Below, one piece after another: positions 37,790 through 63,776 of a DNA stretch of 64,000 bases. The notes beneath the pieces were generated by a model. It did not search any database and had not been told where the DNA came from. It saw only the letters and a list, made by a program, of their open reading frames with translations. Each line of letters starts with the position of its first letter. The first letter of the stretch is position 1. A program made the translations under genes and the position numbers. The stretch is from Octopus vulgaris (taxonomy: Eukaryota). The stretch covers positions 29,698,001-29,762,000 of the forward strand of contig OX597829.1 of the NCBI GenBank assembly GCA_951406725.2. Reading direction: 5' to 3'.

Positions 37790-38945
37790 ATTAAAGCAGA
37801 AACGAAGAGGCAAACAATTTAGTAAGACTTGACAAGGATATTTAGTTATATAATATTACAACATAATGGAAAGGTGTATATAATCTCTAACAGCTGTTTC
37901 TAGAATATCCCAGCTATTGGAACTTTTGCCAAGCAAGGATTCCATATGCTGAGTATTCCGTCATCGGAAGGATATCACCAGCTCATTTCATTTGTTCTTG
38001 GATTTACCTCATGAATACATATTTCAAAAGGATTGCTCCTCTTTTAGACAAAATGAACTATAATGATATTAGTACAATTGTTGTATAATGTCCCTTCATT
38101 GTTACATCTCTTTATCCTCTCCTTCTCCAATGACATATGGAATCCTCATGTGGCACAAACTTCCAATAGCTGGGATATTCTAGAAACAGCTGTTAGAGAT
38201 TATATACACCTTTTTATTATGTTGGTGTAGGAGTGACTGTGTGGTAAGTAGCTTGCTTACGAAACACATGGTCCCGGGTTCAGTCCCACTGTGTGGCACC
38301 TTGGGGAAGTGTCTTCTACTATAGCCTCAGACTGACCATAGCCTTGTGAGTGGATTTGGTAGACGGAAACTGAAAGAAGCCCGTCGTATATATGTATATA
38401 TATATATATATATAAAGTTAATCCAAACAAGAAAGCACAAAAAAAATACAACAACGCAAGGACGTGGAACAAATATAGTATTATTGGACGCTCAGGAAAG
38501 AAGAAGGGTTTAACGTTTCGAGCGGAGCTCTTCATTGGAAACATAGGAGAAGGAAAGATCCAGAGAAGGGAAGATAGAGGGAAAAAAATCGCCAACGGTA
38601 CACACGAGGTCACATGTATGTGTGTATGTGTTTGTGTGTCTGTGTTTGTCCTCCCAACATTGCTTGACAACCGATGCTGGTGTGTTTACATCCCCGTAAC
38701 TTAGTGGCTTGGCAAAAGAGACCAATAGAACAAGTACTAGGCTTACAAAGAATAAGTCCTGGGGTCGATTTGCTGGACTAAAGGTGGTGCTCCAGCATGG
38801 CGACAGTCAAATGACTGAAACAAGTAAAAGAGAGATTATATACACCTTTTCATTATGTTATAATATTATATAGCTATATTAAATGTCCTTGTTAAGTTTT
38901 ACCAAATTGTTTGCTTGTCTGTTTCTGTTTTACTCTATAAACAGA
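37790..38945. repeat. Inverted pair of hammerhead-bearing (Penelope-pLTR-like) segments; right arm interrupted by SINE2 (38225-38835)
   Basis: 37790-37950 is the reverse complement of 38133-38224 plus 38830-38945. Confidence 0.7.
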
Positions 38946-38964
38946 ACATATATAATATATACAC

Positions 38965-39348
38965 ACTAATTGTGGAGGGAACCTGTGAAAGAGGTAGACC
39001 CAGGAAGACATAGGACAAGGTGGCGAAGCATGATCTTTGAATGTTGAGTCTCATGGAAGTGATGACAAGAGATTGTAATCTTTGATGATTTGCTGTGCTT
39101 GAAAAGACATGTCAAGCCAATTGAAATCATAGTCATGGCCAGAGCCAGTGATATGTAAAAGGTACCCATGCCAATGACATGTAAAAGGCACCCACTACAT
39201 TCTTGGAGTGGTTAGCATTAAGAAGGGCATCCAGCTTTAGAAACCAAGCCAAACTAGACTGGAGCCTGGTGCAGCTCTCCAGCTTACCAGTTTAAGTTGA
39301 ATTGTCTAACCCATGCCAACATGGAAAATGGACACTAAAGGATGACAT
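38965..39348 (+). mobile_element. RTE LINE 3' end
   Basis: VEGTCERGRPRKT*DK motif plus the 3' UTR. Confidence 0.8.
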
Positions 39349-39759
39349 ACACAGTCAATCCAAACATGAACAAGCAAGAAAAAAACATAAACGCAAGGAC
39401 ATGGAATAAGTACAGTGTTATTGGACACTCACAAAAGGAAAGAAAAGAAAGAGGATTTTATGTTTCGAGCGGAGCTCTTTGTCAGAAACATTGAAAAAGT
39501 CCAAAGAAGGCCAGATGGAGAAAGAAAATCGCCAATGATACACACACGGTCACATATTGAAAATCATATGTATGTATGTATGTATGTATCTATCTATCTA
39601 TCTAAATGGAGGGATTGGAATGGGTAAAATACAGCATGCATTTTTTCTTAGCTGGCTAATCCTCTGATATAACAGTTACTCAACAAGGGGTGCTCAACTT
39701 AGCTAATCATCAGGCCAAGATTACCTTACTTAAATGAAGGTTATATTTATCGCTTGGAA

Positions 39760-41941
39760 TTTCCAAGTTAGCTCACCACAAATGTTAATTGAAAATGAAG
39801 TATCAATGTAGGATAAACCTACAGTTAAAAACTTCAGGAAGAAATTCAACATAATAGATGCTGTGAATGATATATTAGGTTGGCAACTAAGTTCCACCCG
39901 TTTTTTAAATTTAAATTTTTTATAAGGTTTAATAAAAAATAACAACTAATTAATCAATAATGTATTCACCCTTGTTGTTTACAACTTCTTCCCAACGTTC
40001 AACAAAATTTTCAATACCTTGTTGGTAGAAATCACCTGATTTCGACTCGAAAAATTGATCCAACGAAGCTCTCAGTTCTGCATCAGTATTGAACGAAACT
40101 CTGTGCATAGTATTTGAAAGAGATTGAAAGAGGAGGAAATCCGTTGGTGCCAAATCAGGAGAGTACGGCAGGTGTGGCAGCACTTCCCAGCCATGCATTT
40201 GAATTGCTTCCTTGGTCATATTGGCGATATGAGGGTAGGCGTTGTTGTGCAGCAGAAGAATTCCCTCTTGAATTGACATGTTGAGTCGTTACATCTGTTG
40301 AACATAGAGTTCCACGTTGACCATTTGGTTCCATTCAAGCAATTCGTAATGGATAATCCCTTCCCAGTCCCACCATACACACAACATCCTTTTATGTGGA
40401 GGAAGATCTTGTTTCACACGCAGTGTTGCTTGTTTACTGGGGCTAAGTCATTCCTTATGCTGCTTCATGTTAGTGTACAGGCACCATTTTTCATTGCCAG
40501 TAATGATTCAGTAAAGAAATCCTTGCTTGTGTCCATGAGTTGAGCAGTGATGAGCAAGCAAACCAGCAGAGATTGTGGCTCGTTGATTTTTGTTGCTGTC
40601 ACTTAAAGTATGTGGAACCCATGCTCCATACTTTTGAACCTTTCCCATCAAGTGAAGATGCTTCTCTATAGCAGTGTGGGAGCATTCCATTTTCTCTGCC
40701 AGTTCCCTTGTCATTTGACAAGAATTTTTGTACAAAAGTTGGTTTAATCGCTCTTCATTGAACTCAACTGGATGGCCAGAACGAGGTGCATCTTTGAGGT
40801 CAAAATTTCCATTTTTGAACTTGACATACCAATCACGAGTGGTTCTTTCAGCTATGGCACCCTCTCCATACACAGCACAAATGTTGCGAGCAGCTTTTGC
40901 AGCCTTAGAACCTTGATTAACAGCAAAAAGAAGGAGGTGTCGAAAATGCTTGTTTTTCTTAACTTGACATTCCATTTTAATGATCTGAAAATAAACAAAA
41001 ATTAACTAAAATTAACTTGAAAAAAAAAAGCAAAACAGATTCCAAAATGATTTAAAAATAGAATTCTCGAAAAAAATAGATTCCAAACTTTAAAAAAACA
41101 GTGAGAACTTAGTTGCCAACCCAATAGTTGAGTCATGGGATAAAGTGAAACCTTCGACTTTGAATAGTGCTTGGAAAAGTATATGGCCAGACTGTATCCA
41201 TAATGTTACAAGTTTTCCTGAAATAGAAAGTCTATATCAAATTCTGAAGGATATTGTGGCACTTGCAAAGAATGCAGGATTTGAAGAAGTCATAGATGAT
41301 GTGATTGAGCTGCTAGTGTCCCGGAAAGAAAGTTTATCTACTGAGGAGCTGATGCTGGAAAAAGAACAAGCTAAGAATATAGATGAAAAATTATTGCTTA
41401 AAGGATTGACACTTATAGAAGGAAAGTTTGAAAGTTTTTGCTGATAATGATCCTAATCATGAATGTAACATAAAAATTAAAAGAGAAGTTTTCAATGTCA
41501 TTAACATTAAACAACTTTGGAAAAGTTCTTCACCCCTCAAGTTAATATGCGTGATAATGAACTATAAGATAATAAATATTATCTCTCACCTTCCCTATAA
41601 AGCTCATTCCATCACCATCACTCACGCAGTAGTTAACATCTCAGTGATTCTAACATACCCTCTTAAAATGTTTTTGTGTTTTTATGTATTTGTATTGTTC
41701 TATGTATATTTAGCAATAGTTATTGTCATGTATGAAGACGACCATGTTGCTTGTTCTGTGTTGTTTTTTTGTGAATCCTTTTTTGTTTTTGTTTTTGCTT
41801 TTGTTTTTGAAAAAGTCTGTAGGAATGCAATCTCACTTGATAGTATGAAAATCAAGAGGACAATTAATTTTGCCTTAGGCAATTTTGCATTATGGCCAGA
41901 TTTTCAGGACCACATTACTTTAATAAAGTAAGAGATTCCTG
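39760..41941 (+). mobile_element. Tigger/pogo transposase remnant (host of the mariner insertion)
   Basis: VKNFRKKFNIIDAVNDI|VESWDKVKPSTLNSAWKSIWPDC reads in frame across the mariner TA site. Confidence 0.8.
39875..41124 (-). mobile_element. Full-length mariner transposon (1250 bp) with disrupted DD34D transposase
   Basis: TIRs TTAGGTTGGCAACTAAGTTC / GAACTTAGTTGCCAACCCAA with TA TSDs. Motifs WVPHTL and YSPDLAPTD. ORF split into 40508-40975 and 39950-40279. Confidence 0.95.
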
Positions 41942-62760: not shown

Positions 62761-62769
62761 ACATATCAA

Positions 62770-63090
62770 GCATGGTCATTTACCTGAAGGGAGTTGAATC
62801 ATGTTTAATTTCTGGCTTACTAGAACTTAGGTCTTTGCTAAGTTAACTTTAAGGCTCTTTGATTCCAGGTTTTGCTTCCACACAGAATTTCTTTTCTAAT
62901 TCTACTATAGATTCCATTATGAGAATGAGGTAATTAGCATATGATAGTTCCCAAGGGACACCTAGTCTTAAATTCCTGTTACAGCCTGAAGGAGGACAAT
63001 GACCAACATATGGGGACAGAAAACCAAGCCCTGGTGCACTCCTACCTGTTCTCTAAATTCACCGCTGTATTCCTGCCCAACAGTGAGAGT
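62770..63090 (-). mobile_element. RTE LINE RT fragment
   Basis: QVGVHQG, PWELSYANYL (YADD-like) and LKVNLAKT. Confidence 0.75.
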
Positions 63091-63691
63091 GTGTGTGTGA
63101 GCGTGTGCATATTGTGTGTGTATTGTATGTGTGTGTGTGTATTGTGTGTGCGTGTATTGTGTGTATGCATGTGTGTGTGTGTGTGTGTATTTTTGAGCTA
63201 TGTATTTCTGTTTCAAAAAATATAAATGTTGTTTCAAATAATTCTTGAGCTGAGTCAATTATCCATTTCTCAGCAACATCAGGTATTCTGCTGGTATACA
63301 TATATATAAATAATGTGGGTGGCTTATTAGCAATGCAGGTACCTCTTAGTACTCTCTGTCACTTTAGTGATGTCTATAAATTTGCCTACACACACACACA
63401 TACACACACACACACACACACACACACACACACACACACACACACACACACACACACACACACACACACATACACACACACACACACACATATATATAAA
63501 TAGATGGGTGTAACAATTAACGCGGAAAAAATAGATAAAGAGTTACCAGGGTAGCAACAAATCACACAAGTAAAAAGGTTATAACTCCTTGTTCTTAAAG
63601 GTAGAAACTCCGGGTTTACATGAAATATTTTGTATAATATATATAAATAAATAAATGGAGTTAAACACAGGTGTTATTCAAATTCTTTTAC

Positions 63692-63776
63692 TTCTGACAC
63701 ATGTTTCGAAGATATCACTGGTATTATTCCAAAGGAATAAAATGGTGTAAAACAATGTAATCTTCTCTTCAGAGAA
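63692..63776 (-). ncRNA. Type I hammerhead ribozyme motif with canonical core
   Basis: Reverse complement ttct CTGAAGA GAAGAT...ATCTTC GAAAC atgt GTC agaa. Confidence 0.7.

What the first reader, a model, noticed from the sequence alone, without database searches (positions are those of the whole stretch)
37880..63776. Dense zoo of unrelated hammerhead-bearing short elements lodged in (TA)n microsatellites
Seen: about a dozen C/UUGANGA...GAAAC-(short, often palindromic)-GUH motifs with complementary stems I and II, at about 37880, 38510, 39460, 49775, 51735, 55599, 56178, 56526, 57937, 59855, 60404, 60851 and 63692. They belong to several different sequence families, most abut TA tracts and several lie inside inverted repeats. 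No Penelope RT or GIY-YIG ORF is visible in the window. Inference: a diversified system of non-autonomous ribozyme retroelements that preferentially colonise AT microsatellites and use an RT supplied in trans. It would explain much of the fold-back structure in 37-64 kb.
Basis: partly seen in the sequence, partly recalled or inferred. Interest (0 to 1): 0.72.

Follow-up and report, generated by a model that had tools for sequence, protein, structure and literature searches.

The report
Penelope retroelement ends plus a retrozyme
The dozen hammerhead (self-cutting RNA) motifs here are real repeat copies sitting mostly at TA microsatellites: several are broken-off tails of protein-coding Penelope-type jumping genes and one is a protein-free tandem repeat that likely borrows their enzyme, so they are new members of known kinds, although one very common family has an unusual fixed change in its predicted catalytic core.

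Summary
All 13 sites are copies of 10 high-copy repeat families carrying type I hammerhead folds (7 strict hits in 37-64 kb, 0 in each of 60 shuffles); 11 of 13 lie within 25 bp of (TA)n. The 'non-autonomous system' reading is only partly right. Families A and E2 (and E1 and B, on one locus each) are 5'-truncated 3' ends of protein-coding Penelope-like elements (PLEs): A and B Neptune-type, E1 and E2 Hydra-type. Intact 778-aa Hydra-type ORFs with a sister terminus exist in this genome, and the 63692 copy runs into GIY-YIG sequence just past the window edge. Family H (60175-61057) is a young 362-bp tandem, ORF-less non-LTR retrozyme with a U3:A8 core. C, D, F, G and M are unlinked to any ORF. 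PLE hammerheads, TA targeting, inverted arms and retrozymes are all published, and this scan has noted the same pattern many times in this and other genomes. Residual interest: family A fixes A6U (101 of 108 copies) while N7 and H17 vary freely. Cleavage is untested.

The parts
13061..13238 (+).
37633..37968 (-). Family C, decayed; hammerhead about 37889-37967 (core CCGAUGA, loop III AGCU, GUU); no ORF link found
38100..38220 (+). Family C inverted (head-to-head) arm; a third piece lies at 38830-38962
38415..38615 (-). Family B; minimal hammerhead 38512-38538 with decayed core CCAAUGA; Neptune-type terminus; 3' end abuts (TA)n
39347..39560 (-). Family B-related copy (74% to the 38.5 kb copy); hammerhead 39459-39485, core CUGACAA; not next to (TA)n
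49669..49865 (-). Family A copy, decayed; hammerhead about 49773-49800, core CUGUAGA; 3' end abuts TA
50994..52092 (+). Family D with inverted 5' arm (50994-51052); hammerhead 51739-51857, core CCGAAGA, 100-nt helix II domain, loop III AGCU; at least 1.6 kb of non-coding sequence shared between longer copies; ends at (TA)20
55436..55690 (+). Family M head-to-head insertion; hammerhead about 55604-55655 (this copy CUGUUGA, family CUGAYGA; loop III CAUUG; GUC)
56045..56310 (+). Family E1: inverted tail piece plus 5'-truncated 3' end of a Hydra-type PLE; hammerhead 56182-56254 with perfect core; (TA)n on both sides
56335..56735 (-). Family F, unit with terminal redundancy; hammerhead 56532-56594, core CUGACGA; no ORF link found
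57893..58017 (-). Family G, decayed 3' half; hammerhead about 57941-58013, core CUGAUGA; abuts (TA)n
59764..59951 (-). Family A; minimal hammerhead 59855-59882, core CUGUUGA (A6U); 3' end of a Neptune-type PLE
60175..61057 (.). Family H: head-to-head insertion of a 362-bp tandem non-LTR retrozyme; hammerheads 60410-60439 (-) and 60857-60885 (+, G12 missing), core UUGAAAA (U3:A8); (TA)n on both sides
63511..64000 (-). Family E2: 3' end of a Hydra-type PLE; hammerhead 63696-63772 with perfect core; continues beyond the window into GIY-YIG-coding sequence and an inverted copy

Best explanation
These motifs are type I hammerhead folds in the terminal repeats of Penelope-like retroelements (PLEs) and in at least one protein-free tandem repeat, and they were most likely placed in TA microsatellites by PLE-encoded reverse transcriptase/GIY-YIG enzymes. 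Shown here: families A and E2 (and E1 and B on single loci) are the 3' ends of RT+GIY-YIG elements; family H is an ORF-less 362-bp tandem unit; ends abut (TA)n; many insertions have an inverted second arm. Inferred from PLE biochemistry (PMC11167929, passages): the enzyme nicks AT-rich DNA on both strands and starts copying at two fixed sites in the terminal-repeat RNA, and early termination leaves 150-1000 bp tails and head-to-head pairs. Inferred: H is copied in trans, probably from a self-cleaved monomer or circle, giving arrays of up to about 10 units. Predicted, not tested: the hammerheads cut as dimers through their palindromic loop III. C, D, F, G and M are either truncated ends of PLEs whose ORF I did not reach or further non-autonomous units.
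For: A: an A-type end lies downstream of a Neptune-type GIY-YIG in 27 of the 30 top EN loci and 13 of 14 long-ORF loci; L426 has a 787-aa frame with DKG, CxxC linker and RVT_1 above cut-off; L430 has the hammerhead at both ends of the ORF. E2: Hydra-type EN 253-330 bp upstream, same strand, in 15 of 30 loci; three 778-aa ORFs with E2-like hammerhead repeats at 77-80% identity, two of them with one on each side; RW, DKT, CxxC and CxH motifs as in PMC8557442 section 11; nearest Atlas clusters carry HTH_animal or GIY-YIG. E1: ORF, 3' UTR and hammerhead contiguous in L306, 98% to the window copy. B: 71% match at the 3' end of a Neptune ORF in L305. H: 362-bp period, 99% identity, core TTGAAAA in 30 of 30, fold z -7.1; 14 of 16 inverted insertions pair the two different fixed ends; 17 of 19 have TA repeats on both sides. 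Terminal motif followed by (TA)3+: A 16 of 26, B 26 of 32, D 20 of 31, E1 20 of 26, E2 9 of 15, F 13 of 34, G 6 of 14; background 3.9%. Covariation in 8 E-type sequences: 97% of cells paired, 5 of 13 pairs changed on both sides. Loop III palindromic in 16 of 20 clusters although the scan did not ask for it.
Against: No ORF link for C, D, F, G, M in 30 loci each (1.5-kb flanks; M was not put through the tblastn) or in longer fetches for C, D, F, G; D shares at least 1.6 kb with no PLE protein match. B and E1 rest on 1 locus each, and none of 30 B loci had an EN upstream within 1.5 kb. The intact Hydra ORFs belong to a sister subfamily, not the window's own; no complete A-type element was shown (L426 is 5'-truncated, L430 frameshifted). 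No PLE sharing H's sequence was found. The 778-aa protein has no Pfam match. Cores of A (A6U) and B, C, D (U4C) deviate from the consensus. No cleavage or expression evidence.
Confidence: 0.85

Rival explanations
1. One reading: all or most families are independent non-autonomous ribozyme retroelements mobilised by an RT in trans.
For: H fits fully. F has terminal redundancy and one tandem dimer of E1 was seen. D shares at least 1.6 kb without a PLE match. Short A and B copies have similar 5' limits. PMC8557442 (passage) reports non-autonomous PLE derivatives resembling autonomous 3' ends.
Against: A and E2 copies extend 5' to variable lengths into GIY-YIG and RT sequence, including the window's own 63692 copy. 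Similar 5' limits are partly forced by ranking hits on the query length.
Confidence: 0.3
2. The hammerhead folds are catalytically dead or dispensable relics, kept as passengers or as a protein-binding structure in the terminal repeat.
For: A6U fixed in family A and U4C in B, D and the intact Hydra ORFs; A6C cuts slowly (PMC3088659, passage); hammerhead mutation did not block PLE insertion in vitro and no reads ended at the cut site (PMC11167929, passage); minimal PLE hammerheads cut weakly (PMC4209133).
Against: In family A the only freely varying non-CpG positions in the motif are N7 and H17, the two that catalysis tolerates; H has the compensated U3:A8 pair; loop III palindromes and stem covariation persist across families.
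Confidence: 0.25
3. The elements create the TA tracts on insertion instead of targeting existing ones.
For: Ends join (TA)n directly and target-site duplications cannot be read.
Against: TA repeats flank both outer ends of H arrays in 17 of 19 cases whichever fixed end is there; unrelated PLE fragments nest in the same tracts; some copies end in non-TA sequence; PLE EN prefers AT-rich DNA in vitro (PMC11167929, passage).
Confidence: 0.1
4. Chance matches in AT-rich, repetitive DNA.
For: 5 of 13 window copies fail a relaxed descriptor; no Rfam hammerhead row among those shown.
Against: 0 hits in 60 shuffles and in 40 shuffled background blocks; family consensi keep the fold.
Confidence: 0.01

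Closest known systems
Minimal hammerheads of metazoan PLEs (Cervera and de la Pena 2014, PMC4209133; parts 1-2 of 4 read)
   Same: Type I, little or no helix III, palindromic 15.2-16.2 and loop III, extra base after A9, many variable families per genome, mostly single motifs from truncated PLEs, pairs on opposite strands 100-700 bp apart, U3-A8 variant.
   Different: Several families here have 45-105 nt inserts in helix II; family A fixes A6U, not mentioned in the parts read (supplements not seen).
Neptune-type EN+ PLEs (PMC8557442, passages)
   Same: C-terminal GIY-YIG, CX2-5CxxC linker, DKG motif, microsatellite bias, hammerhead in the terminal repeat (families A, B).
   Different: A6U core; clade assigned by motifs only, no tree built.
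Hydra-clade PLEs (PMC8557442, section 11 read)
   Same: Single ORF, RW and DKT motifs, no CCHH, CxxC and CxH around the C-terminal E/N, canonical hammerhead, (TA)n insertion (families E1, E2).
   Different: The 778-aa and 591-aa frames lack the CxCX5C linker that the paper associates with TA targeting, yet their ends still abut (TA)n.
Animal non-LTR retrozymes (PMC7229834, passages; bioRxiv 10.64898/2026.07.22.740005, part 1 of 5 and passages)
   Same: Family H: 150-450 bp tandem unit, low GC, one type I hammerhead per unit, no ORF, strongly self-paired, co-occurs with PLEs.
   Different: U3:A8 core, strict TA junctions and PLE-style head-to-head arms with two fixed ends; circular RNA not shown; no parent PLE found.

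Membership tests
Type I hammerhead ribozyme | Core CUGANGA...GAAA...UH in type I order | tested here: met
   E1, E2, F, G, M canonical; H compensated U3:A8; B, C, D U4C; A has A6U
Type I hammerhead ribozyme | Helices I-III with covariation | tested here: met
   (structure drawn from these sequences, so it leans to itself); distinct paired stems across clusters and palindromic loop III in 16 of 20
Type I hammerhead ribozyme | Self-cleavage | not testable with these tools
   needs in vitro transcription
EN+ Penelope-like element (families A, B, E1, E2) | RT plus C-terminal GIY-YIG ORF joined to the hammerhead-bearing end | tested here: met
   A 27 of 30 and 13 of 14 loci; E2 15 of 30; E1 and B one locus each; Pfam RVT_1 above cut-off for L426, GIY-YIG just below cut-off for L305
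EN+ Penelope-like element (families A, B, E1, E2) | Terminal repeats on both sides of the ORF, inverted truncated copy, optional tail | tested here: met
   L301, L303 (E2-like), L430 (A); inverted copies in L301, L302; E1 tail
EN+ Penelope-like element (families C, D, F, G, M) | RT plus GIY-YIG ORF joined to the end | tested here: inconclusive
   none found in fetched flanks for C, D, F, G; M loci not searched with proteins; long 3' UTRs could hide a link
Hydra clade (E1, E2) | RW(K), DKT, no CCHH, CxxC and CxH | tested here: met
   read from the 778-aa frames
Hydra clade (E1, E2) | CxCX5C linker | tested here: not met
   absent from L301-L303 and L306 frames; hence 'Hydra-type'
Hydra clade / Neptune clade | Phylogenetic placement of the RT | not tested
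   no reference set fetched, no tree built
Non-LTR retrozyme (family H) | 150-450 bp tandem repeat, hammerhead in each unit, no ORF | tested here: met
   362-bp period, arrays to about 10.6 units, no ORF of 250 aa or more in the arrays
Non-LTR retrozyme (family H) | Expressed as self-cleaved linear and circular RNA | not testable with these tools
   only contigs of runs not on record as RNA were available

The most novel reading that the evidence does not exclude
Family A, one of the commonest Neptune-type PLE families in this genome, carries a naturally selected A6U hammerhead: U6 is fixed (101 of 108 copies, 5 C, 2 A) while only N7 and H17 vary freely, as expected of an active ribozyme. If it cleaves, it is a core variant I did not find in print, present in thousands of copies and missed by standard descriptors; set beside the U3:A8 retrozyme and linker-less Hydra-type elements that still hit (TA)n, it makes 'what do PLE hammerheads do' and 'what targets TA' directly testable in one genome.
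Probability: 0.35. Interest if true: 0.55.

Novelty: new member of a known kind. Interest (0 to 1): 0.3.

Why it matters
The system is known, so the main value is annotation: 21 copies of these families in 400 kb of unselected DNA extrapolate roughly to 100,000 or more in this genome, none shown by Rfam in this window. Three points could interest specialists: a fixed A6U core with a pattern of selection; Hydra-type ORFs without the zinc linker that still insert at (TA)n; and a young retrozyme whose insertions carry the PLE two-end signature, genomic support for the proposal that PLE enzymes mobilise retrozymes.

Tried and rejected
Rfam E-value scan: no hammerhead among 150 rows shown of 167. 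First descriptor too strict or faulty, 3 hits. 55599 first taken for a MITE; rejected when family copies showed a full hammerhead. B core CCAACGA as a fixed variant: rejected, it is CpG decay of CCGACGA enriched by best-hit ranking (G5 is G in 27, A in 21 of 49). ORFs downstream of B, D, F, G copies beyond a TA tract are each different, so neighbouring insertions. Hydra EN upstream of H in L125 is a separate element. Expression of H: no RNA holder listed; contigs of 4 runs cover it and one goes back 361 bases, which a DNA tandem array also gives, so no verdict. Pfam blank for the Hydra-type proteins. No earlier scan note matched H by sequence. Lunse et al. on PLE hammerhead variants is not held: nothing seen; it and unseen supplements of PMC4209133 and PMC8557442 may already hold A6U or cephalopod families. 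Literature searches; the A6U search listed one twister paper, not read.
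Full report
Setting. The window is G000:C16:29698001-29762000 in a 2.80-Gb, 227-contig animal genome, likely an octopus (inference from size and recalled repeat content; not checked further). 1-24 kb holds exons of an alpha/beta hydrolase gene. 37-64 kb is repeat-rich, with 14.1 (TA)5+ tracts per 10 kb against 11.1 in 40 unselected 10-kb blocks and 4.1 in 1-37 kb.

Observation. A relaxed type I descriptor recovered 8 of the 13 sites and an unlisted copy at 13119. 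With stems of at least 4 bp it gave 7 hits in 37-64 kb, 0 in each of 60 shuffles, 12 in 400 kb of background and 0 in the shuffled background; the descriptor was shaped on these motifs and the region was chosen after the fact, so the 9-fold local excess is an upper estimate. Ten genome searches showed each site belongs to a repeat family with 212-3487 candidates; 30 loci were fetched per family. The five sites that failed the descriptor are decayed copies: family alignments restore the fold. Cores among copies matched by the anchor: D CCGAAGA 23 of 26, E1 CTGATGA 17 of 18, E2 CTGAAGA 17 of 19, F CTGAYGA 26 of 28, G CTGATGA 18 of 20, H TTGAAAA 30 of 30 (anchors missed 4, 12, 11, 2, 10 and 0 of 30; the A anchor failed and was redone; C was too divergent to tally). 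Eleven of 13 sites end within 25 bp of (TA)4+.

Structure. Across 1.74 Mb of fetched, partly overlapping DNA, 365 motif hits fell into 24 clusters with different stems, one or two probably false. Loop III was palindromic in 16 of 20 clusters with a loop, which the scan did not require. In 8 E-type sequences 97% of cells pair and 5 of 13 pairs change on both sides; slid controls reach at most 55% (structure drawn from the same sequences).

What the families are. A: longer copies run 5' into GIY-YIG and RT. A search with a neighbouring Neptune-type EN gave an A-type end downstream in 27 of 30 loci and 13 of 14 long-ORF loci, at about 75-84% identity to the window copy (89.6% in L304); L430 has it on both sides; L426 has a 787-aa, 5'-truncated frame with RVT_1. 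B: a 71% match ends a Neptune ORF 2.5 kb downstream in L305; one locus only. E2: EN 253-330 bp upstream in 15 of 30 loci, including the window's own copy just beyond position 64000. Three fetched 778-aa ORFs carry sister termini at 77-80% with CCGAAGA hammerheads, in tandem and inverted layout; motifs match the Hydra description except for the missing CxCX5C linker; BLASTP to the Neptune RT E 2e-6; Atlas neighbours carry HTH_animal or GIY-YIG on a minority to most of members; Pfam blank. E1: contiguous ORF, UTR and hammerhead in L306 at 98%; 1 of 30 loci. H: 362-bp tandem unit, 99% identical, arrays to about 10.6 units, no ORF, fold z -7.1 with a long helix I; a diverged relative in the background keeps U3:A8 with a different, still paired helix II. 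Of 19 distinct H insertions, 16 are inverted and 14 of those pair the two different fixed ends; 17 have TA on both sides. C, D, F, G, M: no ORF link found (M not searched with proteins).

Mechanism. Shown: identity of the ends, TA junctions, inverted arms. Inferred from PMC11167929 (passages): a PLE protein nicks and extends both strands, prefers AT-rich DNA and starts at two internal sites that define the 'tail'; this accounts for short tails, head-to-head arms and the two-end rule. The same passages report that hammerhead cleavage was not needed for insertion in vitro. Dimer cleavage is the model of PMC4209133. Trans-mobilisation of retrozymes by PLEs is proposed in PMC7229834 and argued in bioRxiv 10.64898/2026.07.22.740005. 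Nothing here shows cleavage or transcription.

Core variants. In 108 A-type copies anchored on flanks only, position 6 is U in 101, C in 5, A in 2; C3, U4, G5, G8 and A9 are 94-100% conserved; N7 takes all four bases (53, 23, 19, 13) and H17 is A or U. The 108 are not a random sample (74 loci were chosen by similarity). PMC3088659 (passages) reports natural A6C with low activity, U4C tolerated in vivo and U3-A8; A6U does not occur in its main text, and a whole-word search listed only a twister paper. Lunse et al. could not be read, so novelty of A6U is not established.

Comparison and verdict. PLE hammerheads, (TA)n bias, inverted truncated copies and tails (PMC4209133; PMC8557442) and non-LTR retrozymes are published. 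An octopus repeat annotation lists recently active PLE families and does not contain the words hammerhead or ribozyme in its main text (PMC13282606, passages). This scan already holds 140 notes with the same key words in at least 6 genomes and 814 hammerhead notes in this genome; these are unchecked AI notes and are not counted as support.

Noticed in passing
window 49363-49647 (core at 49485, - strand) and 31990-32170 (core at 32060, +): Head-to-head insertion (49.4 kb) and a related-looking copy (32.1 kb) with a CUGAAGA core and helix II but no ordinary helix III; may belong to the rearranged hammerheads that earlier scan notes describe for Naiad-type elements.
   Followed up: partly
   Followed up: partly
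window 50480-50670: TA-bounded repeat, 11 copies in my loci, consensus with CUGAAGA but no GAAAC; possible further ribozyme variant.
   Followed up: partly
window 56789-57082: 117-bp-arm head-to-head insertion; its end resembles by eye a hammerhead family seen in L387 (core UUGACGA), this copy being cut short of the ribozyme.
   Followed up: partly
L301:3787-6120, L302, L303, L306: Hydra-type ORFs lack the CxCX5C linker yet their family ends abut (TA)n; many near-identical EN copies suggest recent activity.
   Followed up: partly
families C and G consensus: Helix II opens with a mismatch (C.A in C, A.A in G) instead of G10.1-C11.1.
   Followed up: no
family F consensus: A short GUCC-UAC-GGAC hairpin followed by GAAG sits right after the core, ahead of the distal GAAAC; two alternative helix II folds.
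   Followed up: no
window 800-895 and further exons to about 23.7 kb: Alpha/beta hydrolase gene with a GDSAG motif (Abhydrolase_3); only 1 family copy in 1-37 kb.
   Followed up: partly
window 30056-30174, - strand: Dispersed 5S rRNA-like copy, 92.8 bits.
   Followed up: no
window about 39870-41130, 7400-9400 and 61430-62900: By eye: a mariner-like element with terminal inverted repeats, a decayed LTR-retrotransposon-like pol region and a decayed LINE-like stretch; not tested.
   Followed up: no
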